A stretch of 64,000 bases of DNA from the NCBI GenBank assembly GCA_008632985.1, contig QPGO01000010.1, positions 186,001 through 250,000 of the forward strand, in the 5' to 3' direction. This document shows, in pieces, positions 4,348 to 31,284 of this stretch. Source of the DNA: Psammoneis japonica (taxonomy: Eukaryota). The translations under genes and the position numbers were made by a program. Positions within the stretch are counted from its first letter, which is position 1. Each line of letters opens with the position of its first letter. Below the pieces are notes generated by a model. That model was given only the letters and a program-made list of their open reading frames with translations, did no database searches and was not told where the DNA came from.

Positions 4348-6448
4348 ACGCATCGCGATTTGGAAAGGCTTTGTGTTTGTTTCCAATGTAACAATTGCAA
4401 CGGATTGTCTCTTCGGAGAGGTATTTAGCAAACGAGCGACTGCCAAGATTTGTGTTGAAAGCTACACTTTCAATCAACGAGTAATTGATTGTTGCCACAT
4501 CTGTCATTTTCCAATACTTCTACTTTCTATTTGAATAGGTAGTTCTATGTAATCATTAAAGTGGGGCTTGTGTGACACACGCCTCGGCTGCCTTTCGTAC
4601 ACTTTACTGGATGCCCAGTCCAGGCAGATGTGTCATGCACAACAACAAGCAGAGATGATCTACTAGCAAGTCAGGTATCTTTCCCACACCTGCACTGACT
4701 AAAGTTGGCGGCAAATCTGGTGAATGACTCGAAAAGTCCATTTTTACTGAACCAGCACCACCTATGACGAGATTTCGGAATGTGGGGAGAATGAAAGAGG
4801 TTGGCCGCCGGAGGTGGCCCAGAAGAATAAACTGAAATGGAGAAAAGGAAAAGAGAGAGAGAGGGAAAAGCAGGAAAGATGAGAAAAAGAGAAGGTGTTG
4901 TCAGGCCATCAACTTGTGGTCCTTGGCTTGGCTTGTCTGCAATGTAGCTTGTCAGTGACTTGAGGTGCTGTGGCTTTGTGCTTGACAGCAGAGCTCCCAC
5001 AGCATGAAACCATGCAGTTGTGTCAGCAAGGGACAGCTTGACAATGACATCTTTCTTTGTGAGAGTGTTTTGCTGCATGCCTGTCATGGCTTCTTGGAAG
5101 GCTTTTGTCCAAGCCTTGCTCCACCAGCTGGGCAGCTGCTGTGTGGATCTGCACCTTTTTCATTCTCCAAAAAATTGGTGCATGTCTTGACAGGCTTGGC
5201 TCCATTGCACTCATGCAATTCTCTTGAGTCTCTGTCTGAGTCAGAAGACATGGTGTCATCCTCTTCAAAAGCTCTTCACAAATCTCCTCAGTGGCAAGTG
5301 CTTCCCCACCCTTGCCAACAGCAGTGTCTCTCTCAACAAATTCAGAGCATCTCTCCCAAAGCATCAGGTGTGGATGCTGTGCCCAACTTGTCACAAAGTC
5401 ATGAGAGATTTCGCAAGATCCACACCATCGCCAGCTGCAGGGGGGGCTCCAGCACAGCTGTGGCTGCAGCTTCAAATGGCAGACAAGAGCCCTCAAGATG
5501 GGAGCTCTGTGGTTGTGTCCAGCTGTGGTTTGGGTGTGGACTTCTTCTTCCAGCCTGCCTCATTGTGAAATTTTCTGCAGTGCCAAGGAAAGGGGGCTTT
5601 GACACCTCATGACTCTTTGTCCCATTCTTGCCAGAGCATGTGCAATGGAGTTTTTCATTTCATCAGGAGAGGACCCCTGCAAAGCTCCTGAGTTCCTGCT
5701 GGGACCTCAAATTTACCTGCAGCATTGTTCATTCCCACTGCACTCCACTTCAAATTTTTGGTGCAAGCACCCAGGGCAATGGTCAGCTGAGCAAGACCTG
5801 ACTGTCTGCAGCACTTCTCAGCTCACATCTCTGGCCTTCTGACATGTCCTTCAAAGCACCCTGAGAGAAGTGCTTGTGGATCTGCTGGCCCAATTTGCCT
5901 CTGAGGATCATCTCTTTTTGATTTCCACATGCATTTCCTCCACATTGTTGACTTGTGCAAGTGTGTCAGTTGCTTGTGCCGATGGAACAGTGAAGAAGGG
6001 TCCAAAGTTGACGCCATTGCATGCCCTGAGCTTCGCTTCTTCTCACGTCTTCTGAATCTTGTCAATCAACGCATGTTTTGTTTAATCTGTTGAGAGCAAC
6101 TTGCACTCAAATGATTGAACAAAACATTGTTCATGTCTTTTTCAAGATTCAATTTGCATGTGAGAGTGTCAATTGACGTCATTTGTTGACTCACACACAG
6201 CCACAAATTGCTCATCAGAAAACTGAACTCTCATCTTGTGGCACAATTTGGCAATCAACAACTTGGTCCATCCACAGTTTCCAATGCATGGGCACATGCA
6301 TGAGACCTTTCCGCATGCACCCATGACAACACATTTGAAAATCATTGTGTTTTAACTGTCGAAAACTGCGCCGTAAGTTTGGGCTGCACATTTCCTGCAA
6401 AAAGGGGCATTTTTTAGCACGCACACACCCAAGAAGTCTGGAGCAAGT

Positions 6449-7465
6449 CTTGCCAAAGTTGACAAACTCACCAAAGTTGACAAACTTGCCAAAGTCAACA
6501 AACTTGCCAAAGTCAACAAACTTGCCAAAGTCAACAAACTTGCCAAAGTCAGCAAACTTGCCAAAGTCAACAAACTCGCCAAAGTTGACAAACTTGCCAA
6601 AAGTCAACAAACTTGCCAAAAGTCAAAAAAGGTCACAAACTTGCCAAAATTGACAAACTTGCCAAAGTCAACAAAGTTGACAAACTCGCCAAAGTCAACA
6701 AACTTGCTGCAAAGTTGACAAAGTTGCCAAAGTCAACAAAAGTTGACAAACTCCCCAAAGTTGACAAGCTTGACAAAGTCGCCAAACTTGACAAAGTCGC
6801 AAAAGTTGAAGAACTTGCCAGAGTTGACAAAGTCACCAAAGTTGACAAAGTTGACAAACTCACCAAAGTTGGAGCAAAGCCAGCAATTTCACCAAGGTCG
6901 CCCAAGTTGACAAAGTCACCAAACTTGCCAAACTTTAAAAAGTTGCCAAAGTCAAGAAAAGTGACAAAGTTGGCAAAGTTGGCAAAGTTGACAAAGTCAC
7001 CAAACTCGCCAAACTTGCAAGAGTTGCCAAAGCCAGCAAAGTTGACAGGTGTGACGAAGCCCCCAAAGCCAGCAAAGCCAACAATGTTGCCAAAGCTGAC
7101 AAAGCTGCCAAAGTCAAGAATGTTGACCAAGTCAGCAAAGTTGACAAAGTTGCCAAACTTGCAAAAGTTGCCAAAGTCAGCAAAGATCACAAAGCTGCCA
7201 AACTTGGCAAGAGTTGACAAAGTCACCAAAGTCAGCAAAGTTGACAAAGTCAACAAAGTCACCAAACTTGCCAAACTTGCAAAAGTCCCTAAAGTCAGCA
7301 AAGTTGACAAAGTTGCCAAACTTGCAAAAGTTGACAAAGCCACCAAACTTGACAAGCATTGACAAGAAAGTCTCCAAACTTGACAAGAGTTGACAAAATC
7401 ACCAAAGTCAGCAAGGTTGCCAAAGTCACCACAAACTGAGCAAAATCAACAAACTTGACAAAGTC
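6449..7465. repeat. ~1-kb degenerate tandem array of 9-bp units (ttgccaaag/ttgacaaag/tcaacaaac/tcaccaaag), locally 18-bp period
   Basis: Directly visible, e.g. (aagtcaacaaacttgcca)n at ~6490-6560; gives KVDK/LTLAS low-complexity translations in several frames. Confidence 0.95.
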
Positions 7466-7967
7466 ATGTCTGCAAAATGTTTTCTCTCTCAAGCATGTGA
7501 AAAGCACTTTGTGTTGTGTTGCAACAGTGCACCCCCAAGAAACTTTTTCTGCACCTGATTTTTGTGATGCGGGGCATCGTGAGGTGTTTTATGTGGGTTG
7601 TTTGCACTTGTGGATTGGAGCATCAGCATCAAATGTTCTGTCATTTTGCATCAACAGCAACGGTGTTCTTCAATGGTTTGTGATGTTGCTTGACTTGCAG
7701 CTGGGCTTTGCACCCAAATGCCCCAAATGTTTGGCTTGATTTCAGCATTTTTGTTGTTGTTTGTTGTGTTGTGAGCACAATTGTTTGGTGCTGACACACA
7801 GTGTTGCCACCAACAAATGATGTCATTTGCACTCATCTCAACATTGCTGCTAATTCTGGCTGCCACGTGATTTCAGCGCTGCCTTGTTTTTCTCTTTTTT
7901 GTGTTGCCTTGTGTTGCCCACATTGTCCTGCCTTGTTTGTGCTGTCCTGTGCCCTTCCATTTGCATG

Positions 7968-8446
7968 TCAGCTCAGAACTTTGTGCCTCATGATCTTTCC
8001 TCTTGTTGCAGCATGCTGTTTTGAGCACGTGATTTTTTCAAATCTTCAATTTGTGTCACTCGCCGGACCTGTTTTCAGTCTCTCACCTGCCTGTGTCTTT
8101 GCAGCAGCAGGTGTTTTCACCATCAGGGACAAATTTGTTTGAGCGTTTTGGCTTTTTTGAGTCATGTGCTCTTTTCTCAATAAAAAAAGAGTTTGTCAAG
8201 TGATGGTCATTCACTGTTGCACTGTCCCACATCCTTCCATGTTTGCACCACAGCTGAGAACTTTGTGTCTCACCATCTTCCCTCTTGTTGCAGCGCACTG
8301 TTTTTTTTTTCACTGTTTTTCAAATCTTCAACTTGTGTCACTCACCAGACTTTTTTTGTGCCTCACCTGCCCATGTCTTTGCAGTGGCAGGTGTTTTCAC
8401 CTTCAGGGACAAATTTGCACAAAAATTGTGTGCTCTTTTCTCAACT
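7968..8446. repeat. Direct repeat, ~200-bp copies at ~7968-8180 and ~8250-8446
   Basis: Shared cagct.agaactttgtg...cctcttgttgcagc...ttttcaaatcttcaa.ttgtgtcactc...caggtgttttcacc.tcagggacaaatttg. Confidence 0.85.
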
Positions 8447-11400
8447 GAAAAGGGAGTTGCTTGCAGTTGTGCTGTTGATGTGCTTTCATCATCCCAGGTG
8501 GGTCAGGGGCCCACGATGTGTTCCGGCCCCAGCAGGTGATGCACAAAACAACAGCCCCTTTTGATCATGATTTAAATGAGCTTTGTGCATTGAGGCTGTT
8601 CACAAAAATGCTTGTGCATTCTGGCTTTTGTGTTTGACATGAGTGCAAACATTCAAACATTTTTTCAATGGCACCCAAGTCTTCATGGAGCACATGTCAT
8701 AAAATGTTTCTGTGGAAACAATGCTGACTGTGTGCCAGCATTCATGTTGCAGAAGTTTTTGTGTGAGCAGACTGCTGCTGTGAAATGTGCTCCAAATTTT
8801 TTCATGTTAACCTTCAAACAGTGATGGCACATTGATCCTCAAAAATTTTGGCAAAAATCATCCATTCTGTTGCAACTCATTCACCACAATGAAAAACATT
8901 GGCCACACAAAAATGACAATGTTGCAACACTGACATGAATCTTGTTGGTGTTGCCAAACATGAAAATTTGGTCAAACCTGTGCTTTTTGTGGTGAAAGCT
9001 TGTTCGCAAGTCAGAGGCTGCATGAAAATTGCACAAATGTCTTTTTTCTGCATGCTTTGGATCACGTGTGGCTGGAACATTGCACCAAGGTTGGACAATG
9101 TGTCCATCTGTCTTCTGCTGCTGTGCAAACTGCCACCCAAATGATGTCACACCCAGCGATGCTGACAATTTGTTCTTTTGAAGGTGGGATTTGCCAAAAA
9201 CAACAAAGATGCTCTTGATTTTTTTGTTGCCATCTGGGATTTGTCCCAAGGTTGCATTTCCACCCACTTGCAGCAAATCACACAACAATGAGGTGTTTGT
9301 TGTGCACCCTGTGCACAAACCTTTCAGCGCAACAAGCAACTTTTCAATGCATGCCAAAGCTTGGCTCAATCAAGAAGAACAGACACTTTTGTCATGAGCT
9401 TCTCATCCTGCTCCTTGCCATCATCAGCAAGAATGGACTTTTTTGTTGCAAGCTTTGCCCTGCTGCAGCTGCTGCTGCTGCAAGCTCCCAGCAAAAAAAG
9501 AGTGGCCACACCTGCTTTTTTTAAACTCTGCTCCGTGCAAGCCCCCAGGGAGGAGCAAGGGCTTTTTGTTGCAAGCGGTTGCCAGCATCAGCCAGCAACC
9601 TCCAGCTGCGACCCAGGCCATGCATGTGTCAGCAAACAGCCTTGTTCTGAGCTCCACCAGCTTTTGGTGTAGAGGCAGTGGTGGCACAGTGCATGGAGCC
9701 TGTGTGCGGGGTTGCTTCTTGTGGCACTGGGCTGGTGTCAAGAGGAGGCAGGAGGCACAGGCTGCTGACCATCTTGCTTGTCATGCGGTGTCATCCACAG
9801 TTGTGAGCTGCAAGAGCTTTGGTGATGCTGTTCCCACAATGGCTTGTTGTCTGCTTGTGTGCACCCCCTTTCCAATGTGGCAGCAGGCAGAGAACAAAAA
9901 AGAAAAGTGTTTTGCAGCATGTGGGGGTTGGCAGCACCAAGAGCACAGCCAAACTGTTTTGTCCACTCCTTGCCAGTTTTGAAAAGAACAAGAGAATCCT
10001 CCTGAAATCTGCAAGGACTGTCTTTGTTGCTGCACCTTGCTGCAACTTCACAAGGTGCTGCAAGATGTGACTGGACAAGCTGCTCTCTGCTGCATGAGAG
10101 ATCACCCCTGCAAAGTGGTTGGTCGCATTTTCACCATTGTGCTCTGTGCACTCCTGATCAGCTGGATGAAAATTTCAAAAGAACTCACACATCTGAACTT
10201 GCTCTCATTTTTCATTTTTTTGCATTTGTGCATCAATGTGCTTCGTTCACTTCATTGCCTCTTTGCCTTTCCATTGGCAGCTGGCACACACCACACCTCC
10301 CCCAGTCCCCCTGGAAAGAGTGCCACATCTTGTCACAAAGGTCAGCGTGAGTCATTTTTTCACAAATCTGGTTGTGTGCCAGAGACCAAAGAAGTTTTGT
10401 CAGCATGGCAAAGCCAGATGCACAGTGCATGGGTTCCTGGCAAATGAGAAACACGTCCAGAGTCCAGAGGCAATGGTTTTGTGTGCAGCTGAAAGGCCTC
10501 TTGAAAATTGTGACAGCAAAGCATTCTGGCACCAGGAGGAACCAGGAGCAATCAAATTGGCAGCAGAGCTGCTCTTGGCATGACAGAAAAACAGGCTTGC
10601 AGTTGATTGTTCAGGCAAAAAAGAGGAGAGTTGGTGGCACATTGCCCAAGAACTCTTGTTTCTCTTGTCACATGCTTTTGTGGTGCAAGACTTTCCTCTC
10701 ATTGGCTCTGCACACAATGCTTTCTTTGGCCACTGGCAAGGCCACAAATGTCATGTGTTCTTTTGACAGCTCAGATGTTCAAATTGTTGAGACCAACAGC
10801 CAAACAGATGGTTCACAAAGCCTGGCATGCTGAGTGTGAAACCACATGCTGCAATCTGCACCACCATGATGTTGTGGTCTCTGTTGCCTTCTGTTTTCCA
10901 TCTGTGGTTGTTCTTGCCAGACCCAGCAGTGAGGCAGAGTGAATGCTTCAACAGAACAAGCAAGCTGCAGAGCAAGATTTGGAAGTTGTCATTGTGATCT
11001 GCACTGGCTCAGGAAAACAATGTTGTCTCCAAGGGAGAGCTTTCAGTGGTGTGGTGGCTTCTCATGAGCTTGCTCAAAATTCACATGTCGTTGTGGGCTG
11101 GAACAATGTGTGCTGCACCCGCCATGATCTGGCACTCTCGCAGGCGGGCTTTTTTCAGGCAAACAAGGGCTCACTCAGTCATTGCTCTGCCACAGAGAAT
11201 GTGACATTTACTTTGAAAGTGTGGTGCCACCCTGATTGTCAAGAAAATCTGTGTCCCAGATCATTGTTCAGGGCAGGTGCAGATTTGCACAGTTTCTGCA
11301 GAAGTGGGTGCGCAGATTGTCAAAAAGCACAGATTTTCATCAATCATGCCAAACCCAGCATTGGGTTTTGTCAGATTTGAAGAACCCCTCCCCAGGTGGG

Positions 11401-11869
11401 CTGGAGCATTCTGCGTGCATCCTCCTGTGCACATTTGCACTGGGGCACAGATTCCAGAGATTTCCGTTCAGATTCAGAGCAGGTGGTGCAGATTTTTTCA
11501 AGCCCCCCCAAAACAGGTGCAGATTCTCATTTTCGCACTGATTTTCTGTGACAATCAGGGTGCAAGCCTCTTGGCTCAGGCACTCACGGAAGAACAGGGC
11601 CTCTGTCATGTCAGCTGCCAGCTGCACAGAGCTGCTAGAGAGTAGAGCGACAGAGGGCAAGGTCACAAATCTTCGAGAAGATTGCGATCATTCTTCCGCG
11701 CGCCATCGAGCTCTCGCTCCGGTCAAAACGTGCGCGCCATTTTCCACCGTCGGGTCATTCGCTTGATTTCGTTTCGCTTCGACGCATTCCTCATGCTTGC
11801 TGTCATATCACCGGTGCAGCGCTGACATTGTTGCTCTTGCTTTGCCCGCTCTTGTCTCTGCTTCAAAGT

Positions 11870-13330
11870 ATGAATAGCCGAATGCCCTCTACTGCTCCTG
11901 CCAACGGGTGGTCTTCGCTCCAGCCGTCATTGAATCATCATCCGCACCAACTCTACACCCGCGGCGCCAGACGGCCACAGGCACTAGTATCGCAGCAGGC
12001 ACCGCAGGAGATGACGACGGAGGAAGAATCGCTGTTCGTCCATTCGTTCATGGATTGGATAAGCAGCAAAGATCCAGCGGCTGCTTATGCGATAAGAATC
12101 TGCAGTGACCGTCGAAGCATGGAAAACTTTCTCAACCACGCCGTGTCCGGCGATGAAGAACGCGAGAATTCAGTGATTCATTTCAAAAACGGTGCTGCCA
12201 CGGCTCGGGCGTGTCTTGATGAATACAAGTGGTACTTCCAGAGGCTCAAGGATTTTGTCGAAGCCCAACAATCGGTGCTCGATCGGGCGATGCCGGAAGC
12301 AGTCGATAATGTTCGCATGACGTTGGATGAGCTGCTTGCGTTGCAGCAACACACCAAGCCTAAAGTGCTCTCCCAACAATACTTGAAGCGCAAGCTAATC
12401 AAAGATGACATTCAGCTTCACACCGTTACTTCGAATCGCTTGGCGGAGTCCATGCATCTCGGTACGTTTCAAGACATTCAAGAGCTAGATAAGTCAGAAA
12501 AGCTCGAAGTGATTTGCTTTCTATCTGCGAATAGTGTCTGTCGCGTTGACGCTGTCAAGGAAAGCATAAACTTTGCCCGAAGCATCGATGCGGTCGATGA
12601 CGAGTTCCCAATGGATCGAATATTGGGAGAAACTGGTGATAACGAAGACACTCTCGACGTGTTTATTGCCATCTACCTAGGCAAACTGCCCGATTGGGCA
12701 CGATGCTTTCGCTTTATTCGGAGGAGCGACACGGATTCATGCCAAGGTTGCTGGCTTGAAAACACCATTGCCATTGTTCATGACATCAAGGCATTTCCGA
12801 ATACCAACATGCAGCGTCTAGCTGCAGCGTCTATCGGATTTGAACCTTTCAGCACGGTGACTTCAGACCAAGCCGAAGCTTGGTTCAATCAAGAAGGACT
12901 GGCGCCTTCGTTGCAAGCCTCTGCTCCTCGCCATCACCAGCAAGGACGGACTTCTTCATTACAGGCCGCTGTTGCAAGCCTTCGGTATGGGGATTCGATT
13001 ACTTCGTTGCAAGTCGCCGCCGCCGCTGCAAACCCGCAGCAACCGGGACTTACTGGCGGTCAGGGAGCTCAACCTCAGCCCACGGTTCAGTATGGCATGC
13101 AGCCTGAGCCAGACACGATGAGCTCTCATCAAGTACCTGAGCAGGTGCTTTCGGATAATGCGGTTACTTCTGGTGATGAGAGGAGCCAGCCAGCTCTGGC
13201 TGCGACCCGTACTGTTCGCTTTGGCGGAACAACTGTGCAACTCCCGGTGATTTCTGGTGGAATGCCTGCTGCTTCAAACAGAGAAAGCAACAATCAAGAC
13301 AACGATTCCTCGTCGCAAATTTCTAGCTAG
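11870..13330 (+). CDS. Hypothetical protein (~486 aa, apparently intronless)
   Basis: Long uninterrupted ORF in normal-composition DNA (Tyr, CpG and TpA present); globular-looking middle and Q/P/S-rich tail; no family recognised. Confidence 0.7.
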   Translation: MNSRMPSTAPANGWSSLQPSLNHHPHQLYTRGARRPQALVSQQAPQEMTTEEESLFVHSFMDWISSKDPAAAYAIRICSDRRSMENFLNHAVSGDEERENSVIHFKNGAATARACLDEYKWYFQRLKDFVEAQQSVLDRAMPEAVDNVRMTLDELLALQQHTKPKVLSQQYLKRKLIKDDIQLHTVTSNRLAESMHLGTFQDIQELDKSEKLEVICFLSANSVCRVDAVKESINFARSIDAVDDEFPMDRILGETGDNEDTLDVFIAIYLGKLPDWARCFRFIRRSDTDSCQGCWLENTIAIVHDIKAFPNTNMQRLAAASIGFEPFSTVTSDQAEAWFNQEGLAPSLQASAPRHHQQGRTSSLQAAVASLRYGDSITSLQVAAAAANPQQPGLTGGQGAQPQPTVQYGMQPEPDTMSSHQVPEQVLSDNAVTSGDERSQPALAATRTVRFGGTTVQLPVISGGMPAASNRESNNQDNDSSSQISS

Positions 13331-16300: not shown

Positions 16301-16699
16301 CGCAAATGTTCATTGATTTACACTTGCATGTTCATTTTCTCAATCACGGCCCACAATTCTCAATCTCGGCCCAGCAATTCTCAATTGTGGCCCACTCTCA
16401 ATGCACTCTTCTTAATTGTTGGGCAACAACTCAAGTTCTCGCGTTTGCTTTTCCATTTTCCTCACAAATGAATTTCTGTGATGCTGCAAATGACATTGCT
16501 GCTGTCAATGCCTGCGTGCATCAAACCAAAAAGACTCACACTCGCACACTGCCCCAGCACCACTTCCACAGGACCACGATGTTTGCGCGTTCATTTTCTC
16601 ATTGCGGCCCACCAATTCTCAATTGCGGCCCACTTTCTGCTCTCAGAGCTCCTGTTCCTGTGAGCTCCGGACCACTTGGAAGTTGGGTGGCAGCCAGCA

Positions 16700-20600: not shown

Positions 20601-22769
20601 GGCTCAGCTGTGCACAATTTGCCCTGATTGTCATCAAAAATCTGCTTTGATTTCAGAATCTGTGAGAAGCTCATTTGGGGGCTGAATGAAATCTGCAAGT
20701 CATTGACCACCAAGTGGTTGGTGATTGCAGACTTTTTCATGTCGTCGGGCAGTCGGGGGGTTGGGCAGTTGGGGGGGCGGGCAGTCCATCTGAATTTGAA
20801 AGTGTGTGTCCCTGGGATTTTGGAACGGCATGGGTTGTTCAGCGCAAATGAATCATTCGATTGTCAGAATGATCATTGAGGACATTGGAGGTCATGAGGA
20901 CATCCTAAAAAATTGACAAATTCCTGCAACGGGCACGTGGAACGGTTTTTTGGGAGAGCTCGAAAGTGCTGTAAAATTGGGATTGCCGGCGTGGCATGTT
21001 GAAAACTGCACTCAGCCTAAATGAAGACAATCAATCATGAACTGCACATGAAACAGTCACATTGGGGAAAACATGTCAAACAACAAGTGTGTTTGTGCAA
21101 TGCGCTGTTGTGGCAATAAATTGGAAAAAAAAGAGTGTCTGTGCACCTTGCTGCAGCCCCAAAAATGGCGTGAGACATCAAACACAATGGTCACCCGCAT
21201 CACCGGTGCGGTGGCCACACCACTCTGCTGCCACAATGCCGGCCATGGGCACTTGTGCAGCAGGGCCCTGCGTGTGCATGAGCACAGGCAACACAGCATG
21301 CAATGGCACACACCCACACCCACAAAGAAAGACAAGTGGTCAATGCTCCCCGCAGGCCTGGCTCTGATTGACTGCTGCTGACAGCTGACTTGGCCACAAA
21401 TGCGGTTTCTGTTTGACAGATGACCTCAAGCTTCTTTTCACAGAGCACCCCAACAGACCAACCAACGTTAACCTGAGTTGAAGGCACAGATGAATTTGGG
21501 GTGACAAGAAGCCTCTGTTTGTGTCAAGGGCTCATTCATGGTGAACAAATTGATTTTGACAATCAATTGAATCAGCAAAGCAGGAAACCAGACTCAAAGA
21601 AATTTGGTGTTCTTCTTGTTGCAGTGCATGGGCTCTTGACAAGACTTGTTTTAAGCTTGACAGCATGACCGCATCAACTGCGGGCATTGGAGCATCAGCT
21701 GTCAACCAAATGAGCAAAGCAAGAAACCATCTGTGCACACAGCCAAGTTGATCTGGTGGATTGTTGCTGTGTGCTGGCTGGAGCACTCTGACAATTTCAG
21801 CTGTCCAGTTGTCATCAGCTCTGGCGCAAATGATGTGGTTTTGGTTTCTGATGATGTTTGTTGTCTGCCCTGGCAATGTTCAACATTTGGCACATGCTCT
21901 GATGCTCTTGTGCTCTTGTTCCATGCTGTCATGCTGTTGCCTTTGCTTCCTCTGTTCTTTGAGCCACCACCCATTGTTTGTTGCAGTCTGACCCACATCT
22001 TGGTGTTTGTGTTCCAATCTTTCACATTTCAAAGAGAGTCAGTTTTTGTGACAGCTTTTCATTGCAAGACATGAAAGCAAAATCCTTGGAAGAAAACAGC
22101 AGAGAAGTTGTCAGTTTGGCTTTTTTTTCAAGCATGGCACAATGCTGCTGTTTCTGCTTGCCTGTGTGCAGTGGTGCAGCACTTTGTTTCTCATCCTTGG
22201 CCATTTTTGCCAACTTGTCCAAGTTTCAAGGGGGGGGGGGGGGATGAAAGAAAAGCATCAGTTTGTTGTTGTTTGCTCTGCATTGCCTGCGCCTGCTGCA
22301 CCACACTTCAGACCTCTTGCATTTCCCATGGCATTTCTTTGCTGGCATGTGCAGAGTCCTGGGTGTTGTTGGTGCCTTCCTGTGCAGTGTCATCATTGTG
22401 CACTGCTTGGCTGCATCCTGTGTTTTTGTGTTGTTTTGTGTGGTGGTGGATGTGCCATTTTGCCACAGAACAAAGCTGGCCAGCCTGGTGATCACTGCAC
22501 TGCCTGTGTCATTTTGCAAGTTGTGGCTCTTTTTGACAAGAGCCATGTTTGTTGATTTTGATTGCCAAAGCATTTTGTTCATGAACTCTCATTTGATTGG
22601 CAGCTGGGTGTTGAGCATTGTTTCAATCACACGCGCAGCACATTTCCAAAGAAGCTCCATGTCTCAGTTTTTGTGATCTCAACCAGCTCTTGTTCAGAAT
22701 GAAATTTTCAGATTTGTGCTGGTCTGTGCAGTTTGTTGGTGTCATTGTGCATGTGTGGATTCACAAATG

Positions 22770-25700
22770 CACAATGGCACCAACCAACTCAACAGCTGCA
22801 AGCCAAGGACACTGGCAGCATCTGGCAGGCTGCACAGCCATCACTTTGAGAGCTGTTGTTGGGAGTTGCAAGGTTGATCTTGTGATGGTGTGCTCCCATG
22901 TTGCCTTGTCCCCAACAGCAGCAGACTTGACTTTTTCCCAGCTCCAGCCAGAGTGAGAAGATCTCATGACAGTGCCTGCCAACCCAACAACTGCCAGCTG
23001 GGCACCAGGGGAGGGGGGGCTCCAAGAACTGCGGTTGGGTGTTGCAAGGTTGGTCTTGTGATGTTGTGGCCCTGTGTCACCTTGTCCTCATTAGAAGCAA
23101 CTCTTGCAGAGATCTCATTGTGGTGCTGACCAACCCAACAAGTGCTGGCAGAGGACTCTGGTGGCCTTTGCTGGACCCCAGGCAACACTTTGAGAACTGT
23201 GGTTGGCAGACATTGCATGGTTGATGTTGCAGTGATGTGGCCCATGTCTTGTCCTCAACAGCAGCTGACTTGAACTTCCAAACTCCAGAGTGAAAAGACC
23301 CCATGGCAGCACTGGCTTGGCTGCAAGCTGAGGGCACCAACAGTGTCCAGTGCACCCCAGATGTTTCTTTGAGCACTGTGGCTGAGCACTTCAAGGTCAA
23401 TCTTGTGGCTCTGTGGCCCCATGTCACATTGTCCCCAGCCAAAAACAGCAGCAGGCTTGACTTTCCCAGCTTCAGTGCCAGACTCCAGAGAGCAGGGATC
23501 CCACAACAGTGCCAGCCAGCCCAACAACTGCACTCGGAGGATGCTGGCGGTGTCTGGTGGACATCAGGGGACAATTTAAGAACCATGGGGCCAAGTGCTG
23601 CAAGGTTCATCTTGTGGCATTGTGGCTGCATGCGTGTCATGTCCAAAACAGCAGCAGACTTGGGCTTCCACCAAAGCAACTCCAGAGTAAAGTGGCGCCA
23701 ACCAAGTGGGCAACAGCGTGCTGAGGAGACATTGACAGTGTCTGGTGGACCCCAAGCAATGCTTTGAGAACTGTGGTTGAGCACTGCAAGGTTGATCCAG
23801 TGATGTTGTGGCACCATGTCACCTTGTCCCCACAACAGCAGCAGCAGACTTTACTTTCCCAGCTCCAGTGTGAAGGGATCCCATGACAGTGCCAGCCAAC
23901 CCAACAACTGCCAGCAGAGCACGCTGGTGGTCTCTGCTGAGCCCCAGGGGCAGCACTCTAAGAACAATGGTTGGGCATTGCAAGGTGGATCTTGTGGCAC
24001 TGAGGTTCCATGTCACCTTTCCCCAACAGAAGCAGACTCACTTGAAGCCCAGCTTCCAAACTCCAGGGTGCAGAGATCCCACTGTGGTGCCAACCAACCC
24101 AACAACTGCTGGCAGAGCATGCTGGCAGTCTTTGGTGAACCCCAGGTGACATTTTCAGAACTGTGGCTGGCAGACATTGCAAGGTTGATGTTGTGGTGTT
24201 GTGGTCCATGTCACCTTGTCCCCAAAACAGCAGACTTGACTTTCCCAGCTCCAGAGTGAAGGGATCCCATGACAGTGCCAGCCAGCCCAACAACCAACAA
24301 CTGCTGCCAGCAAAGCATGCTGGTGGTCTCCGCTGGGACCCAGGAGGGGGGGGGGGGGGGGCACTCCAAGAACTGTGGTTGGGCATTGCAAGGTTGATCT
24401 TGCAGTGTTGTGGCCCCATGTCATCTTGTCCCCAACAGAAGCAGACTTGGACTTCCAAACTGGTGCCAACCAGCCCAACAACTGCCAGCAGAGGACACTG
24501 AATCCAGGGCAAGACTTCAAAACTGTTGTTGGGCATTGCAAAGTTGATCTTGTGGCATTGTGGCCCCAGAATGTCACGCTGCATCCAACAGCAGCAGACA
24601 CAAACTTCCAAACAAGTGACAGGACCCCATGGCAGTGCCATCCAACCTGACAACAGCAAGCTGAGCAGTGTCTGGTAGACCCCAAGCAACACTTTGAGAA
24701 CTGTGGCTGATGATTGCAAGGTTTGTCTTGAAGTGTTGTGGCCCCATGTCACCTTGTTCCTGTCAGCAGCAGACTTGAATTTCCAAACTCCAGAGTGAAG
24801 GGACTCCAACATGATGGCACCAACTGACCTGACAGCCACAGACTGAGGGCACTGACAGTGTCTGATGGACCCCAGGCAACACTTCAAAAACTGTGGTTGA
24901 GCATTGAATGGCCAATTCTGTGGTGTTGTGACCCCCTGTCACCTCATCCTCAACAGCATGGCAGACTTGCCTTTCCCAGCTTTGGAGAACAGCAATCCCA
25001 TGACAGCGCCAACCAACCCAACAACTGCCCAGCAGAGCACACTGGCAGTCTCTGGTGGGCCCCAGGGGATGCTCCAAGAACAGTGATTGGGCATTGAAAG
25101 GTTGATCTTGTTGCCTTGTGGCCCCACCATGTCACCTTGTCCCTGACAGGAGAAGACTTGAGCTTCCAAGATCTAGAGTGAAAGGATTGTTCAATGGTGC
25201 CAAATGACCCATCAACTGCTGGCCAAGGGCACTGGCAGTGTCTGGTGGAGCCAGGGCAAGACCACAAAACCTGTTGTTCTTGGGCATTGAAAGGTTGATC
25301 TTGTGGCATTGTGGCCCCACAATGTCATGTTGTGTCCAACAGCAGCAGGTTTGAACTTCCAAACTCCAGAGTGAAAAGGACACCATGACAATGTCAGCCA
25401 ACCTGCCAGCAGCAAGCTGGGGACACTGGAGATGCCTGGTGGACCCCAGGCAACACTTTGAGAACTGTGGCCAAGCATTGCAAGGTTGATCTTTTGGTGT
25501 TGGGGCCCCATGTCACCTTGTTCCTGCCAGCAGCAGACTTGAACTTCCAAGCTCCAGATTGAAAGAACTCCATGATGGCACCAACTGAGCATTGGGGGTC
25601 TTTGGTGGACCCCAGGTGAGCCTTTAAGACCTGTTGTTGGGCACTGAAAGGTTCACCTTGAAGTGTTGTGGCCCCATGTCCTGTCACACCCAACAGCAGC

Positions 25701-25910
25701 AGACTTGGACTTCTGCCAAGCTCCAGTGTGAAACGACCCCCATGACAGTGCCAACCAACCTGTCGTCAGCAAGCTGAGGACACTGGCAGTGTCTGGTGGA
25801 CCCCAGATGACATGTCGAGAGCTGCAACTGAGCATTGCAAGTGCTGTTGTGGCCCCATGCTGTCACCTTGTCCACAACAGGAGCAGACTTGAACTTCCAA
25901 ACTTCTGAGT
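22770..25910. repeat. Satellite array, ~17 diverged copies of a ~185-bp unit
   Basis: The marker gcagacttg (or a variant) recurs 17 times between ~22921 and ~25883. Core: gggcattgcaaggttgatcttgtggcattgtggccccatgtcaccttgtccccaacagcagcagacttgaacttccaaactccagagtga...ggtggaccccaggcaacactttgagaactgtg. Confidence 0.93.
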
Positions 25911-26269
25911 TGCTTGTTCAAAGGTTTGGTTGCTGAGTGGCAGTGGGCGAGGAGAGCAAAGCTTCAAAGAGCAATCCAATGGGATTGCCAGAAATGCAGA
26001 GTTGTTTTGCAGTGGCAAAATGGCTTGAGGAGGAGAGCAGAGAAATTTGCACCAGCAGCATTTTTGAAACAAGTTTCTCTTCATTCAAGCCATCCTCCAT
26101 TTCATCCTGGTCTAAAGTTCAAGCAAGAGTGGATCTTGTGGGAGGGTTGGTTGGGTTGCAAGTCAGAAATGCAAGCTGAGCTTTGTTGACTGGTGAGTGC
26201 CACACAATTTTTGAAGCTTCCTTCCATGGTTGATGATGCAGTTGTTGCAGGCATCAATCATCCATGCTG

Positions 26270-27310
26270 ACCACATGCTGCTGACACTTGGAAAAGCATG
26301 GCATTCAAACAACCCTCTGCAATCTTCTACAAGGGGCAAAACTGGTGCCCTCACAGAGCAACAAGGAAGAGCTGCACAGACAGTGGACATGATTTTGTGT
26401 TTGCTGGCTGAGGTCCACTGCTGCAGCTGAAACAGAGTGCAGTGTGCAAGCACCATGGACCGAGATGTGAGCTCAAATTGCAGCCATGTTGGCTCCAGTG
26501 ACCTGGCACACCAAAAAGTGTTTGTGGCATGTTTGTTGTCAATTGACAGCTTCAAAGTGGTGTTGAAGAATGAAGTGCAGATTTAGATTGACCCATGATG
26601 CAATCTGGGTTGATGTTGGAGTTTGTCAAATTGTGGTGTGACAATGAGGCTGAGTTGGTTGATGAGCATTTCTTGTGGCAATGGGAAGCACAAATGAGAA
26701 CATGGATCAAATGACAGCTTGGCAATTGTGGGAATTGCTGCTTGACATTGTGGGTTGGGCTCTGGAGTGCAAATTGACATTCTTTGAAAGAAGGAAATGA
26801 CTCAAGTCTCAATGTCAAACAAGTTTTCTGTTGCCAAAGCCTTGTTTGCAACCACCACTCTCATGCAGTCTGGGTCCTGGAGTCAGGTGCATGGAAAACA
26901 CTCATCCTTTTTTCTCCAAAACAAGCAAGCTGGTGTGCTGACACTTGGACAAGCACAGCATCCAAACAACCCTCTGCAATTCTCTGCTGGGGGCAAAAGT
27001 GGTGCCCTCACAGAGGAACAAGGAAGAGCTGCACACACAGTTGTCAATTGACAGCTTCAAAGTGGCATTGAATGAAGTGAAGAATTAGACTGACCCGTGC
27101 TGAAATCTGGGTTGAAGTTGGAATTTTTGTCAAATTGTGATGTGATGATGAGGTTGAGTTGGTTGATGAGCATTTGCAGCAACACAGGAAGCATGATCAA
27201 CAACATGGATTGAATGACACATGACCATTGTGGGACCTGCTGACATTGTGAATTGGGCTCTGGAGTGCAAATTGGCACTCTTTGGCAGAAGGAAATGACT
27301 CAAGTTTGCA
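26270..27310. repeat. Tandem duplication (~26270-26820 and ~26930-27310, second copy with an internal deletion)
   Basis: Shared caaacaaccctctgcaat...ggggcaaaa.tggtgccctcacagag.aacaaggaagagctgcaca and gttgtcaattgacagcttcaaagtgg...gagttggttgatgagcattt...gggctctggagtgcaaattg. Confidence 0.88.
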
Positions 27311-30300
27311 GCTGGTGCATTGTTTCTTGTCACAAGGGAGCTGGGAGGTGGTTGTTCAATGAGAAGTTCATTTTGAAAGGAGAGCAGCTTCATTGTTCTC
27401 AGTCATGCAATGAGCACACAGCAGATTTCAACAAGGCAGGGTGTGCAATTGTCACATGCAAACAATCTGGATTGGTGGTGACTGCTTTGTGTGGTGCTCA
27501 ATGCAACAAAGAGCCAAGTGCAGCTGCAACACAAAAAAATGGGCAGTTGCGCTGAAGCTCTTCCACGCAAATGAGCTGGCTCTGAGCAAGATGCTGGGTC
27601 ACAAAACAAAACATTGCAAATCCATGACCATTGAAAAAACAATTTCAGCCTTGAATGACAACTTTGCCAATGACAGATTTGTGGCTGAAAATGAGTCAGT
27701 GTCAGAACATCATTCAGAGCCAGTTGCAGCAACAACCTTGCTTGATTTTTGAAAATTGTGACACCTCTGGAGAGTGCAATCACAGGTGCAAATGTTTTGA
27801 TTCATGTCAATGGTCTTCTTGTTGAGAGCAAGCAGACAGATGGTTTCCAGGTGCGCCACTGATTTCACACTGCAAACACTGGCAACTCCACCAGAACTGA
27901 CAAAAACTGGTCTGGCACAAACCAAGAACAATTGAGTTTTGTGCGCCATTGTGAAGGAGTTTGGTTTTGAAAACTGCTGAAAATGGATGGCTTCCTTCTC
28001 TTGCTGCTGTCAGGGGGCATGAGAAAAGCAAGAGTGTTGCAAGAAGCAAGGCAGAGGCACAAGGAAAAAGCCACCTTTTGAAGAGACGTCTTCAATTAAA
28101 ACATGAGTTTGCTGTTCAACACTGTCTTCTTTTGTGAGTGGCTGCATTTTTGTGCTAAATGCAAATGTCATTGCTCAAGCATGTGGTGCATGACTGTCTC
28201 ACTCATTGAAAACCATGTCATGCCTTGCATGTTTGTTGGATCAAACACTTTCAAAAGATCAAGAGGTGATGTGGGGGGCACATGTGGGCAGAGCTGCTGT
28301 CCAAAGAAATTCTGCCTCAACGACAGTGCATTTGAAGGCTTTGCCAGTTGTTGGAACACCTTGATCATGGGAGCCACAAAGGACCCAGGTGCATTGAAAA
28401 AAAGACACTTTGGCTCCTGACATGGTTCAATGGGTGACTCACAATGAGAAAAGCCTTGCTGTCACCAATCTCTCACTTTTGTTTTTCATCTCACTCTTTG
28501 GAGTGAATCATTTGGTTTGGTGTGTGATTTGTCATTCGGTGTCAGCAGGTGCCTGCCATCACACAAGTTCACAGTTTGTGCCAATGCCCTCAGCAACCCA
28601 CCACAGCTGTTGCAGTTTTCCAAGAAAGTGGCAAGTGTGAGGATGAGCAGCACAGGAAGCCCAACAGGATCCCCTTTTGTGATGTTGACTTGCTGGCTCA
28701 ACAAATCAACCTTCATGCACACAAAAAGATGTGAAGTTGTTTGCCCAGCAATCTGCCAGCAAGTTTGATGACTGAGAAAACTTCAAGTGTGCTGATTGAC
28801 AGACATTTTCAACAGTGCACAAATTTCACACAAGATTCTTAGACAGCAGCTGACCAGATGCCCCCCCCCAATGTTGTTTGTTGGCTGGTTGATGGGTCAG
28901 TTTTTCTGTTTTTACACAAGCATTTGGCGCTTGTTGCCCTCATCTAAAACCATGGGCGCATGTGACACAGCTCTCCCCAGCCCTCTCTGGTGCACCACTT
29001 CACATTGGCCTTCTCTGCAAGCAAGATGTTCTCCGCCAAATTCACCTTTGATGGACTGGTCATGCTGGGGTTGGCTTGTGGTTTGATTTGCTTTTCACGT
29101 CACTTTCTCCATGTCTGGCCCAATTGATGAAGAACCCAGCAGCCAGTGGCTGGACATTCTGCAAGAAGAAAGCATGGAAGCAGAGCCAAGGCTGGAAGCG
29201 GTGGCAAGAATGGCAACCATGTGCCTGCAAATTGTGCTGAAACTTGTGCTGCATTCTTTGTGTCTGTCAGATTTTTGTCATTTGCATTTGCCCATTTGCT
29301 CAAAAGCAAGAGAGCACCACATGAGCTGTGGTGCACTGCTTCACAGCCAAAAACCATTTCAAAAGAACAATCTCATCATTTTGATGTCTTCTGGCATTGT
29401 CCTTGCTTTTGTCTGTTGCAGGAAGCAAGAAGGTGAGGTTGCTTGAAAAACATTGTTTTTGTCAATGCCATTTCTTGGAGGTGCCCCAACAAAATTTCTT
29501 TGTCCATCACATGCAGCAACCACAACAGAGCTGGGTGGGACATGTCATGCTCTGGTGTTTGTAAAATCAGACCATGTGATTTGAGTTGCTGACTTCACAC
29601 CTTGTGGGCGCTGGTCAAGAGTGCAGAGAACATCTTGCCACTCTGCCGAGCCACTTGCTGTGGCTCAAATTGATGCTGGGCAACAATCTGAGGAGGTTCA
29701 AAACCATGTGTGGTGCTGTTTCTTGCCATCACTCTGAAGTGGTCTCTGCATGTTTGAGCCACTCATGTGAGCAAACAACCAACAACCCACTGACCCAGCC
29801 TTTTGCCTGCCCAAGTGCCCTGAAATGATGGGAGAGATGGAATGATGTGACCACCAGCGGGGCTCTTGTGCAACATGTCAACAACAAAGAGTGCAAAATC
29901 TTGTTGTGTTGAAAAAAAAACAGCACTCCTGTTGTGCTTCATGACATGAACCCCTCCCACCACACTTGGAAGGTCAGTTTGTGCTTGTTTGCGCCACACA
30001 CTTGTTGCCAAATTCTCCAATGGAGCAGCCACCAGCTGCCATTCATTGCAGCCACCCACCAGGCATGCATCCTTGGCTCAGCAGGCAAGCATGCAAGTGC
30101 ATGAGAGAGGTCTCTGAGTGATCTGCTTTCTTTCTCTCCCTCTTTTCCTTTTGGAGTGGCAAGAGCCAGACTGCCCCCGCCGGAGCTGAAAAAACTCTGG
30201 ACACTTGCAAAGTGGTTTTCCACCATCTGATCCACAGCCTGTGGCATGGCAGCATGGCTCTGCCCTCCTCTCCACACTTCAAGCCAGGCATGCCTGGGAG

Positions 30301-31284
30301 TCACGCTGTGGTCACATTTTGTGTGCTTTCCTGTGTGGTTTGCTTTTGTTTGGCTGTGTCTCTTGTTGTGCTCAACCCTGGCGCAAGTGTTCATGCCGAA
30401 TTGGAGAGTCATCATGCCAGCAGCCTTTCTGGTGTAGGCTTGGAGCCATGGGTGCAGCCATGGGGGCAGCAGGGGAGGCTCAGCTGGTCTTTGCTTTGAA
30501 CGAAATCCCCCCTCCACACATGCCATTCGAGAGCTCTTTTTCCAATGTGCAGCACTGCCACACCGGCAGATAACCTCTTGATGTGCGAATGTGCTGCTGC
30601 CTGCCAGCCACGCCCTTTTCAGTCTTGTTGAGCGTCATCGATGGAAGCCCTACATTTCGTTTTCTTATTCTTGAAGAGTGGAATCTTCTGCTATGCGCGA
30701 CCCCCAGGAAAAGGTGGTGATGCGGGAGGGAAGTTTAGAGTTGAAGATCAGAAATGCAACTGACACGCTTCCACACACATCACGCCACGTTGCACCAGCA
30801 CGGGGCGCAGCAGCAGCCGCACCTCGCCCGCATCTCACTTCATTTCCCTGCATGTGCTTCGCGTAGAGAGTGGTACAGTCTCTACGAGGAAATACTCAAC
30901 AGAACTTCACCCCGGCGCTGTGTTCAGAGCGCTGTTGACTGTTGACTGTTGACTGCTTTTCCTCGCATGCCAAGAAGAATCACCATCGAAGCCATCAAAG
31001 CACACCATCCGTGAAGCTGTGCCGTCCGATTACCGCTGCATTCTGCGATACGTCTTTTCGTGATCATTTCATATCGCAAACTTATTTGCTCAGTGCTCAG
31101 AGCCTTAGATCAGAACAAGGCGTCATATTGTTTTCTGAGTTCGGAGCATCAGTGTTGCGACGCCTCCTCCTTGCCAATCTTTTGTCGATATTAGCAGCAG
31201 AGCTCATTAGAGCAGCGCCCATAGAGCAGACTTACAACATATCATAGAGGTGAAAACTCATCCGAACGTACCCCCGGCTTAATA

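What the first reader, a model, noticed from the sequence alone, without database searches (positions are those of the whole stretch)
5700..30580. Surviving TpA sites are mostly in TTA/TAA contexts, implying sequence specificity
Seen: of about 15 residual TAs I found in block 1 beyond 5.7 kb, all but one (tgTAga, ~9670) have a 5' T or 3' A (tttacc, tttaat, tttaac, cgtaag, tttagc, tttaaa, tttatg, gctaat, aataaa...). Block 2 shows the same strong bias with few exceptions. Chance would give roughly half. Inference: the preferred target is approximately V-TA-B, a strand-symmetric preference expected from an enzyme or DNA-shape effect. These are manual counts.
Basis: seen in the sequence. Interest (0 to 1): 0.7.

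Follow-up and report, generated by a model that had tools for sequence, protein, structure and literature searches.

The report
Leftover TpA sites follow a flank rule
Two stretches of a diatom-like genome have had nearly every TA and CG step turned into CA or TG, and the few TA steps that remain sit almost only next to a run of T or A, which points to a targeted, context-sensitive DNA mutation process that has not been described.

Summary
Two blocks (4946-11635 and 14558-30650) are almost free of TpA (o/e 0.03/0.05) and poor in CpG (0.15/0.23), with CpA/TpG at 1.8. Of 65 residual TpA, 56 have a 5' T or 3' A (block 1: 15 of 16; block 2: 41 of 49), against 628 of 1727 outside (Fisher p=5e-16). 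Equal depletion of all NTAN contexts is rejected (p=2e-18). Survival runs TTAA 0.31, CTAA/TTAG 0.26, GTAA/TTAC 0.14, ATAA/TTAT 0.06, CTAC/GTAG 0.04, and zero for ATAT, GTAC, ATAC/GTAT and ATAG/CTAT.

The blocks are real DNA, present in an independent contig set at single-copy depth. They are repeat-rich and hold gene relics. Pyrimidine-purine steps per base are unchanged (0.24). Relic ORFs have 0.13% Tyr against 2.5%, with excess Cys/His. So TA and CG were converted to CA/TG by transitions.

My reading is a DNA-level, region- or repeat-directed transition process. TTA/TAA, especially TTTA/TAAA, resists it, and some leftovers are recent back-mutations. The enzyme is unknown. The flank pattern does not fit RIP or ADAR-type editing. 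Six literature searches found no described equivalent.

The parts
4946..11635 (.). Block 1: TpA-free, CpG-poor, CpA/TpG-rich DNA
   Evidence: TA 16 (o/e 0.03), CG 54 (0.15), CA 1.85, TG 1.80. Edges come from the TA/CG position lists. No Pfam domain in six read-through frames.
6450..7464 (.). 9-bp tandem array (about 98 units) whose units differ as TTGAC / TCAAC / TCGCC
   Evidence: TRF and sequence. The same site holds TG, CA or surviving CG, so an ancestral CpG was resolved either way.
11636..14557 (.). Spacer of normal composition between the blocks, with a 500-aa ORF (11828-13330, +)
   Evidence: TA o/e 0.63, CG 1.05. ORF; no Pfam family. One 7225-bp contig of run X1 joins it to block 1.
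14558..30650 (.). Block 2: TpA-free DNA; CpG very poor at both ends, moderately poor in the middle
   Evidence: TA 49 (0.05), CG 219 (0.23), CA 1.82, TG 1.81. Per-kb profile.
15800..21700 (.). Sub-block 2a: gene relics, with TpA o/e 0.06-0.14 but CpG o/e 0.4-0.7
   Evidence: Relic ORFs: Tyr 2 of 1498 residues against 111 of 4443 outside; Cys 5.3 vs 1.9%, His 4.7 vs 3.3%, Met 3.7 vs 2.3%, Trp 2.7 vs 1.3%.
16672..17798 (+). Three relic HA (helicase-associated, PF03457) domain repeats (16672-16842, 17310-17528, 17625-17798)
   Evidence: Pfam. HMM built from 1117 domains of 150 homologues. In the family column with Y 0.61/F 0.37 the relics read H, H, C; in the column with F 0.64/Y 0.16 they read C, F, C.
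16921..17219 (.). High-copy element inside block 2a, less depleted than its surroundings
   Evidence: Summed contig depth 45,147 and 20,802 in the 16506-17839 bins against about 66 for single copy, with loose ends at 16921, 17007, 17013 and 17219. For 16900-17300: TA o/e 0.14, CG 0.70.
18253..19434 (-). Relic GNAT acetyltransferase plus DTW domain reading frame, broken by an in-frame TGA
   Evidence: Pfam PF13508/PF00583 and PF03942. It has a single Tyr, the conserved LYEKAGF residue, encoded CTC TAC GAA at 18838-18840.
19043..20565 (.). Old internal duplication (19043-19507 vs 20086-20565, 75% identical)
   Evidence: 48 transitions, 27 transversions and 12 adjacent CA/TG double differences. 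A TTAC site is shared by both copies (19254, 20296).
22767..25910 (.). Tandem array of about 17 units of roughly 190 bp
   Evidence: The unit junction reads TTTG|A, TCCA|A, TTCA|A, GTCG|A and, in 3 units, T(T/C)TA|A (23577, 23959, 25625).
26279..27305 (.). Internal duplication (26279-26384/26936-27041 and 26535-26807/27040-27305)
   Evidence: 8 CA/TG double differences. A TTAG site is shared by both copies (26584, 27086).

Best explanation
The two blocks are repeat-rich, largely non-coding nuclear DNA of a diatom-like eukaryote. In them both self-complementary pyrimidine-purine steps have been driven almost to extinction by transitions: CpG to TpG/CpA, and TpA to TpG/CpA. CpA/TpG is left as practically the only Y-R step.

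Shown:
- The conversion is by transitions.
- It removed Tyr codons from gene relics.
- It stops within about 100 bp at the block edges.
- It is strongly flank-dependent.

Inferred:
- It is a DNA-level process aimed at a region or at repeats, a genome-defence-like hypermutation with two arms.
- The CpG arm is ordinary 5-methylcytosine deamination. It is still uneven among copies and is fastest in T/A-flanked CpG.
- The TpA arm is a separate A:T-to-G:C activity of unknown enzymology. Candidates are deamination of the A, or a mutagenic modification of the T, in TpA.
- The TpA arm works best on A-TA/TA-T and R-TA-Y. It works 5 to 20 times worse when the TpA ends a T-run or starts an A-run (TTA/TAA, most of all TTTA/TAAA).

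The residual TpA are therefore a mixture. Some are protected TTA/TAA sites. A smaller set are recent CpA-to-TpA or TpG-to-TpA back-mutations, and these supply most of the V-TA-B exceptions.
For: 1. Real DNA. In run X1, contigs at depth 61-67 reproduce the blocks. One 7225-bp contig (7304-14453, 1 mismatch) runs from block 1 into normal DNA.
2. Transitions only. Y-R steps per base are 0.237 and 0.244 in the blocks against 0.230-0.247 outside. The CA+TG gain equals the TA+CG loss (one search counts; 500-bp profile).
3. TpA really was converted. Relic ORFs have Tyr 2/1498 against 111/4443, with Cys, His, Met and Trp in excess. The conserved HA-domain Tyr reads H, H, C in 3 of 3 relic repeats.
4. 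Repeat link. 3415 contigs of the same run lie on 20 kb at 90-99% identity. They differ by 203 transitions and 29 transversions.
5. Flank rule. T-runs of 3 or more before the A account for 44 of 130 half-sites, against 213 of 3454 outside and 8.6% of the blocks' own Y-R steps.
6. Protection rather than creation. TpA shared by both copies of old duplicates (75-85% identical) are all TTA-type. Three of the 8 TpA in the 190-bp array sit in one T_ _A column. Non-CpG C-to-T in that array is only about 1.45 times higher after T (31/247 against 91/1037).
7. The effect is specific to TpA. CpG survival has the opposite flank order: lowest after T (0.146) and TT (0.12), highest after G (0.31).
8. No strand skew: TG and CA are about equal in nearly every 500-bp window.
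Against: - No enzyme, base modification or methylation data are available. No whole genome is held, so I could not test whether the process is directed at repeats, at chromatin or by homology.
- Parts of the blocks are single-copy at 90% identity or better (depth about 66 at 7835-8501, 9836-11169 and 19174-20507). A repeated flank at 13838-14504 (depth 428) is not TpA-depleted.
- Among the 40 copy differences that were printed (of 239), 14 are window CA/TG against CG in another copy. Only 1 is CA against TA. TpA loss may therefore predate the amplification of the repeats, or be a property of the families.
- The excess of CA/TG double differences (30 of 63) can be explained by CpG ancestors alone.
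- All 65 leftovers have a pyrimidine 5' of TA on at least one strand, and the 4 transition-type back-mutations that I could polarise are all C-to-T after a pyrimidine. A biased supply of new TpA therefore contributes.
- The multiplicative half-site model still misfits (deviance 21, df 6, p=0.002).
Confidence: 0.55

Rival explanations
1. Supply bias only. TpA removal is context-blind and essentially complete. The leftovers are all new arrivals made by C-to-T at pyrimidine-C-A (TCA to TTA, CCA to CTA, and the complements), as expected from dipyrimidine photoproducts or a TC-preferring deaminase. On this view the flank pattern reports the creating process, not the removing one.
For: - 65 of 65 leftovers have T or C before TA on at least one strand, and R-TA-Y is 0 of 65.
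- 6 of the 16 TpA with paralogues are derived. The 4 transition-type cases are all C-to-T after C or T.
- By my hand calculation counts, a dipyrimidine-limited arrival model predicts the CTAA/TTAG, ATAA/TTAT and CTAC/GTAG counts well.
Against: - The same model predicts about 8 CTAG and 6 CTAT/ATAG. Observed: 1 and 0. It also under-predicts GTAA/TTAC (6.5 expected, 16 observed).
- C-to-T after T is only about 1.45 times higher than after other bases in the 190-bp array.
- TTTA is enriched fourfold over its TT-YR precursors (34% against 8.6%).
- TTA-type sites are shared by both copies of old duplicates.
Confidence: 0.2
2. Selection rather than mutation. The blocks belong to elements whose RNA or DNA is attacked at UpA/TpA and CpG, as in the CpG/UpA suppression of cytoplasmic RNAs and RNA viruses, or in restriction avoidance. 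Lineages without these steps were the ones that multiplied. TTTA/TAAA would be tolerated or functional, for example as A/T-rich signals.
For: - The same dinucleotide pair (CpG and UpA) is the one known to be suppressed in RNA viruses and mRNAs (PMC3829696; I saw only the search listing and abstract).
- Other copies in the genome lack TpA just as the window copy does: 1 TA difference against 14 CG differences among the 40 printed.
- The high-copy element at 16.9-17.2 kb is TpA-poor but nearly CpG-normal.
Against: - The depletion is 97%, strand-symmetric and without TG/CA skew.
- It covers single-copy pseudogene relics of ordinary host-type genes (HA, GNAT, DTW), where it destroyed Tyr codons.
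- No Pfam domain of any kind, transposon-type included, was found in six read-through frames of block 1 or of 21.7-30.6 kb.
- Only 2 of the 65 leftovers are in an AATAAA-like word.
Confidence: 0.12
3. Foreign origin or artefact. The blocks are insertions from another genome with this composition (a virus or a symbiont), or they result from misread modified bases or mis-assembly.
For: The edges are sharp, within about 100 bp. The blocks found no close protein homologues in two searches.
Against: - A k-mer contig set built independently from the same sample reproduces the blocks at single-copy depth and bridges a block edge. Misread symmetric modifications would give two strand-specific versions at half depth, not one mixed TG/CA sequence.
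- The relics are of the HA-domain type. Elsewhere in the window the DUF6824 protein's nearest Atlas clusters are mostly Bacillariophyta.
- The same sample holds thousands of related contigs.
Confidence: 0.05

Closest known systems
Repeat-induced point mutation (RIP) of Neurospora and other ascomycetes
   Same: It works like RIP in outline. Near-saturating transitions are tied to a dinucleotide context, confined to sharply bounded repeat-containing segments, and turn genes into relics. Copies differ mainly by transitions.
   Different: The direction is opposite. RIP turns CpA into TpA and lowers GC. Here TpA is destroyed, CpA/TpG accumulate and GC stays at 0.41-0.55. The RIP indices are inverted: TpA/ApT is 0.05-0.06 and (CpA+TpG)/(ApC+GpT) is 1.9 (from one search counts). 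A:T-to-G:C changes are required, and no cytosine-directed enzyme can make them.
CpG hypermutation of transposable elements in basidiomycetes (TpCpG target; PMC3318451, seen as search listing and abstract only) and methylation-driven CpG decay in general
   Same: The CpG arm matches. CG is converted to TG/CA, survival is lowest after T (0.146) and highest in GCGC/CCGC/CCGG, and the state varies between copies (14 CA/TG-against-CG differences among the 40 printed).
   Different: It says nothing about TpA, which here is depleted more completely than CpG and independently of it. In sub-block 2a, TA o/e is 0.06-0.14 while CG o/e is 0.4-0.7.
A-to-I hyper-editing by ADAR or ADAT/TadA-type adenosine deaminases (neighbour preferences recalled, not from a call)
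   Same: A read as G, with a preference for a 5' U/T, would turn TA into TG, and into CA on the other strand.
   Different: - A outside TpA is not depleted (AA o/e 1.2-1.4).
- There are no strand-specific clusters.
- TAT, the context least favoured by ADAR, is fully lost, while TAA and TAG partly survive.
- TAC, the TadA context, survives when preceded by T.
Very-short-patch repair bias in E. coli, held to convert CTAG into CCAG/CTGG (recalled, not from a call)
   Same: It is the only known route I can name by which TpA is turned into CpA/TpG: T:G mismatches are always repaired towards C:G.
   Different: It is bacterial, bound to one pentanucleotide context, and produces a mild genome-wide bias. 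It does not give 97% loss in bounded blocks.
CA/TG-rich, TpA-poor island of a marine T4-like phage
   Same: Local TpA loss with CpA/TpG gain over several kb.
   Different: That is a phage coding region kept up by an ongoing bias. It shows no CpG loss, gene relics or repeats. I did not check it here.

Membership tests
Fungal RIP | C:G-to-T:A transitions only, at CpA, raising TpA (TpA/ApT index above about 0.89; (CpA+TpG)/(ApC+GpT) below about 1.03; thresholds recalled) | tested here: not met
   TpA/ApT is 16/305 = 0.05 and 49/808 = 0.06. (CpA+TpG)/(ApC+GpT) is 1514/789 = 1.92 and 3652/1892 = 1.93 (one search counts).
Fungal RIP | Acts on duplicated sequence and stops at the ends of the duplication | tested here: inconclusive
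   The edges are sharp and many stretches are repeated in the same sample (3415 contigs). However, 7835-8501, 9836-11169 and 19174-20507 are at single-copy depth, and a repeated flank (13838-14504) is not depleted.
Fungal RIP | RID/DIM-2-type cytosine methyltransferase homologue; premeiotic timing | not testable with these tools
   No genome is held for this window.
Methylation-driven CpG decay | CpG deficit matched by TpG/CpA excess, with differences between copies at CpG sites | tested here: met
   CG o/e 0.15/0.23 with CA/TG at 1.8. Among 36 classified differences there are 14 CA/TG-against-CG and 4 CG-against-CA/TG. The tandem array shows TCG/TTG/TCA variants.
Methylation-driven CpG decay | 5-methylcytosine present on the region | not testable with these tools
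   No bisulfite or raw-signal data are available.
ADAR-type hyper-editing recorded in DNA | A-to-G at many A in strand-specific clusters; 3' G favoured and 3' U disfavoured (recalled) | tested here: not met
   AA o/e is 1.2-1.4. TG/CA skew is near 0 in most 500-bp windows. ATAT, GTAT and CTAT are 0 of 328 outside-equivalents, while NTAA and NTAG partly survive.
Selection against CpG and UpA in expressed RNA / RNA viruses | Moderate suppression of both dinucleotides in functional, transcribed sequence | tested here: not met
   The depletion is 20- to 30-fold for TpA. It lies in relic ORFs with in-frame stops and lost Tyr and in DNA with no Pfam domain. Expression could not be assessed.
Transposable element (any class) | Transposase, reverse transcriptase or integrase domains, terminal repeats | tested here: not met
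   No such Pfam domain in ORFs of 70-90 aa or more or in read-through frames of block 1 and 21.7-30.6 kb. No shared terminal repeats at the four block edges. Hypermutation could hide them.

The most novel reading that the evidence does not exclude
Diatoms, or at least this lineage, may possess a repeat- or heterochromatin-directed DNA editing system that is the mirror image of fungal RIP. It would erase TpA by A:T-to-G:C transitions, alongside CpG decay, through an enzyme or a modified base that acts on the TpA step. Candidates are an oxidised thymine such as 5hmU/5fU or a deaminated adenine. The flank rule measured here (R-TA-Y and A-TA far more sensitive than T-TA/TA-A, with T-runs protective) would be that enzyme's footprint.
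Probability: 0.3. Interest if true: 0.9.

Novelty: new variant of a known kind. Interest (0 to 1): 0.72.

Why it matters
Every repeat-directed point-mutation system described so far works through cytosine and makes DNA more AT-rich. A process that removes TpA by A:T-to-G:C changes, in sharply bounded blocks and with a measurable flank preference, would be a new mutational arm of genome defence, or a new base-modification chemistry, in a major group of marine algae. The flank hierarchy gives a concrete footprint against which candidate enzymes can be tested. TpA/CpG-free blocks would also give a simple sequence signature for mapping silent chromatin in diatom genomes. If the leftovers instead turn out to be mostly back-mutations, the blocks would still provide a clean read-out of the organism's spontaneous C-to-T spectrum.

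Tried and rejected
- E. coli genome search with the spacer: no match. The window is eukaryotic.
- No whole genome is held.
- Earlier notes of this scan: none for this genome.
- Homologues of the GNAT relic and of a block-1 ORF: none.
- Self-comparison of the blocks with the rest of the window: no unmutated paralogue. blastn is; tblastx gave only short chance-level pieces. The GNAT at 48564-49463 is unrelated.
- Exact-word scans of metagenome contigs with a 21-mer from the high-copy element and a 27-mer from the 9-bp array: 0 matches each.
- Rfam and tRNA scans of the window: nothing.
- RNA evidence: no RNA holder was listed for the stretch, so expression is unknown.
- Attributing the CA/TG double differences to TpA ancestors failed. 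The CpG-only prediction was 7 against 30 observed, but it rests on 3 CG/CG sites, and the main duplicate pair fits a CpG-only model with about 31 ancestral CpG. This is inconclusive.
- GC-biased gene conversion is rejected. AA/TT are raised (o/e 1.2-1.4), AATT is unchanged (ratio 0.98) and GC content is unchanged.
- A plain AT-richness or DNA-melting effect is rejected. ATAT and TATA are fully lost while TTAA survives best, and CpG shows the opposite flank order.
- 5hmU is only a lead. In dinoflagellates it marks repeats, and an old report gave a TA/TC preference (passages of PMC11572971). Base-resolution mapping in Breviolum found no motif (passages of PMC11071213).
- 6mA in eukaryotes is at ApT, not TpA (passages of PMC12695648).
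- Literature searches for a TpA-removing hypermutation in diatoms or elsewhere found only fungal RIP and CpG work. A search for DUF6824 found no paper.
Full report
**What the window is.** Outside two blocks the 64-kb window has ordinary composition (GC 0.44-0.57, CpG o/e about 1, TpA o/e 0.55-0.63). It carries eukaryote-type genes:
- a trehalose-phosphate synthase/phosphatase split into several frames (33102-36143, minus strand);
- an aminotransferase, a GNAT and a SIR2-like domain;
- a DUF6824 protein.

The nearest Atlas clusters of the DUF6824 protein are eukaryotic, most commonly Bacillariophyta. HA-domain repeats are also present. I therefore treat the window as nuclear DNA of a diatom or close relative. 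No whole genome is held for it.

**The blocks.** From 4946 to 11635 and from 14558 to 30650 TpA almost vanishes: 16 and 49 sites, o/e 0.03 and 0.05. CpG falls to o/e 0.15 and 0.23, and CpA and TpG rise to about 1.8. No TpA-free gap longer than 200 bp occurs anywhere else in the window. The edges are sharp to within about 100 bp, and a 2.9-kb spacer of normal composition with a 500-aa ORF lies between the blocks.

Pyrimidine-purine steps per base are the same inside (0.237, 0.244) and outside (0.230-0.247; one search counts). What TA and CG lost, CA and TG gained, which is the signature of transitions acting on sequence of normal make-up. TG and CA are balanced in almost every 500-bp window, so there is no strand-specific process. 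GC content is unchanged.

**Is it real?** The one public sample that holds the stretch gives k-mer contigs at depth 61-67 that reproduce the blocks. One contig of 7225 bp runs from block 1 through the edge into the normal spacer with a single mismatch. This is probably the sample the assembly came from, so it is not an independent isolate. It does rule out an assembler artefact. It also argues against misread modified bases, which would give two strand-specific versions at half depth.

The same run lays 3415 contigs on the 20 kb at 90-99% identity. Summed depths reach 45,000 around 16.5-17.8 kb. The differences are 203 transitions against 29 transversions. The blocks are thus largely made of repeat families, although some stretches (7835-8501, 9836-11169, 19174-20507) are at single-copy depth.

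**What is inside.**
- Block 1 and the part 21.7-30.6 kb have no Pfam domain in any of six frames read through their stops. They do hold tandem arrays: a 9-bp array at 6450-7464 and about 17 units of roughly 190 bp at 22767-25910.
- The part 15.8-21.7 kb holds gene relics: three HA-domain repeats and a GNAT-DTW frame broken by TGA.
- These relic ORFs contain 2 Tyr in 1498 residues, against 111 in 4443 in ORFs outside. Cys, His, Met and Trp are raised. That is what TAY to TGY/CAY, ATA to ATG and CGG to TGG would give.
- I aligned the relics to 1117 HA domains from 150 homologues. In the family's Tyr/Phe column (Y 0.61) the three relic repeats read His, His, Cys.

So TpA was converted, not merely absent from the start. 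In this part CpG is only moderately depleted (o/e 0.4-0.7) while TpA is at 0.06-0.14. The two losses are separable.

**The finding itself.** All 65 residual TpA are listed.
- In block 1, 15 of 16 have a 5' T or a 3' A. In block 2, 41 of 49 do. Outside, 628 of 1727 do (Fisher p=5e-16).
- I estimated ancestral TpA per context from the blocks' own x-YR-y counts and the outside TA share, about 970 sites in all. On that basis survival is TTAA 0.31, CTAA/TTAG 0.26, GTAA/TTAC 0.14, ATAA/TTAT 0.06, CTAC/GTAG 0.04, CTAG 0.02. It is 0 for ATAC/GTAT, ATAG/CTAT, ATAT and GTAC. Equal depletion is rejected (p=2e-18).
- Per half-site the order is T 0.18, C 0.06, G 0.04, A 0.02. With two T upstream it reaches 0.35.
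- TTTA or longer accounts for 44 of 130 half-sites, against 6% outside and 8.6% of the blocks' own Y-R steps.
- A multiplicative half-site model captures most of this but misfits (p=0.002). One T/A flank protects almost as well as two.
- CpG shows the opposite flank order, lowest survival after T and TT. ATAT and TATA are wiped out. The effect is therefore neither general AT-richness nor a general block to mutation in T-runs.

**Survivors or newcomers?** Sixteen of the 65 TpA can be compared with paralogous copies inside the window.
- Six are derived. 7290 CTAA stands where at least 8 units have CCAA. 25174 CTAG stands where 7 of 7 have CCAG. 24676 GTAG comes from GTGG and 23688 GTAA from GTGA. 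23852 is a transversion, and 23092 is also derived.
- These include 2 of the 9 V-TA-B exceptions. Two more exceptions lie in the less depleted high-copy element (16974, 17224). One is the conserved Tyr codon of the GNAT motif (18839).
- The TpA shared by both copies of old duplicates are TTAC (19254/20296) and TTAG (26584/27086). Three of the 8 TpA of the 190-bp array fall in one T_ _A junction column.
- All 65 leftovers have a pyrimidine before TA on at least one strand, and the 4 transition-type newcomers arose after a pyrimidine. A biased supply (YCA to YTA) therefore contributes.
- That bias is modest, however. In the array, non-CpG C-to-T is only about 1.45 times higher after T. A dipyrimidine-only supply model over-predicts CTAG and CTAT/ATAG and under-predicts GTAA/TTAC (hand calculation).

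My conclusion is a mixture in which context-dependent removal is the larger part.

**Timing.**
- Between copies, CpG is still being lost. Among the 40 printed differences (of 239), classified into 36 events, 14 are CA/TG in the window against CG in another copy. Four are the reverse and 4 are TG/CA double changes. Only 1 involves TA.
- Within the window, 30 of 63 adjacent double differences between repeat copies are CA against TG. That shows independent resolution of an ancestral self-complementary step. I could not show that any of these ancestors was TA rather than CG.
- TpA loss may therefore be faster and already complete in all copies, or it may predate their amplification.

**Mechanism.** Shown: transition-only conversion of both self-complementary Y-R steps, confined to two sharply bounded, repeat-bearing segments, strand-symmetric, with opposite flank rules for TpA and CpG.

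Inferred: the CpG arm is deamination of 5-methylcytosine, and the TpA arm is a second, unknown A:T-to-G:C activity.

Compared with signatures I recall rather than tested:
- ADAR would leave TAT and remove TAG, which is the reverse of what is seen, and would also deplete A outside TpA, which it does not.
- TadA-type enzymes favour TAC.
- RIP makes TpA instead of destroying it.
- T-to-C signatures with a 5' A preference exist in animals, so the flank order need not be a recognition site.
- A T:G-mismatch repair bias, as proposed for CTAG loss in E. coli, and an oxidised thymine at TpA are the only routes I can name. Neither is supported by data here. 5hmU marks repeats in dinoflagellates, with an old TA/TC report that newer mapping did not confirm.

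**Novelty.** Six full-text searches returned fungal RIP, CpG decay and viral dinucleotide work. None returned a TpA-removing hypermutation in diatoms or elsewhere. These searches cover open-access papers and preprints only. I file the finding as a new variant of repeat-directed point mutation. It fails the defining tests of RIP, so I claim only that it works like RIP, not that it is RIP.

Noticed in passing
window 16506-17839, core about 16921-17219: A very high-copy element. Summed contig depth is 45,147 and 20,802 against about 66 for single copy, with loose ends at 16921, 17007, 17013 and 17219. It is TpA-poor (o/e 0.14) but nearly CpG-normal (0.70), so it may be a younger insertion into the block.
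   Followed up: partly
window 6450-7464: A 9-bp tandem array of about 98 units. The units alternate GTTGAC / GTCAAC / GTCGCC, so TG, CA and surviving CG occupy one site. This is a compact display of CpG resolved both ways.
   Followed up: partly
window 13838-14504 and 4500-5166: The DNA just outside the left edges of both blocks is also repeated in the sample (depth 428 and 360 against 66). At 13838-14504 it has normal TpA and CpG density. Being repeated is therefore not sufficient for depletion.
   Followed up: no
blocks, all CpG: Residual CpG are enriched in GCGC, CCGC/GCGG and CCGG (density ratio 0.34-0.53). They are rarest in TCGA and CCGA/TCGG (0.10). This flank order is opposite to that of TpA.
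   Followed up: partly
window 33102-36143 (-): A trehalose-phosphate synthase (Glyco_transf_20) plus trehalose-phosphatase gene, read in four frames. Presumably one gene with short introns.
   Followed up: no
window 54011-56301 (-): A SIR2_2-domain ORF (54011-54790) lies directly downstream of a 519-aa ORF with no Pfam family.
   Followed up: no
window about 24300-24345: One unit of the 190-bp array carries a run of about 16 G that the other units lack.
   Followed up: no
window 11828-13330 (+): A 500-aa ORF of normal composition sits between the two blocks. It has no Pfam family. A 94-bp stretch of it (12869-12956) is 73% identical to 9350-9443 inside block 1.
   Followed up: no
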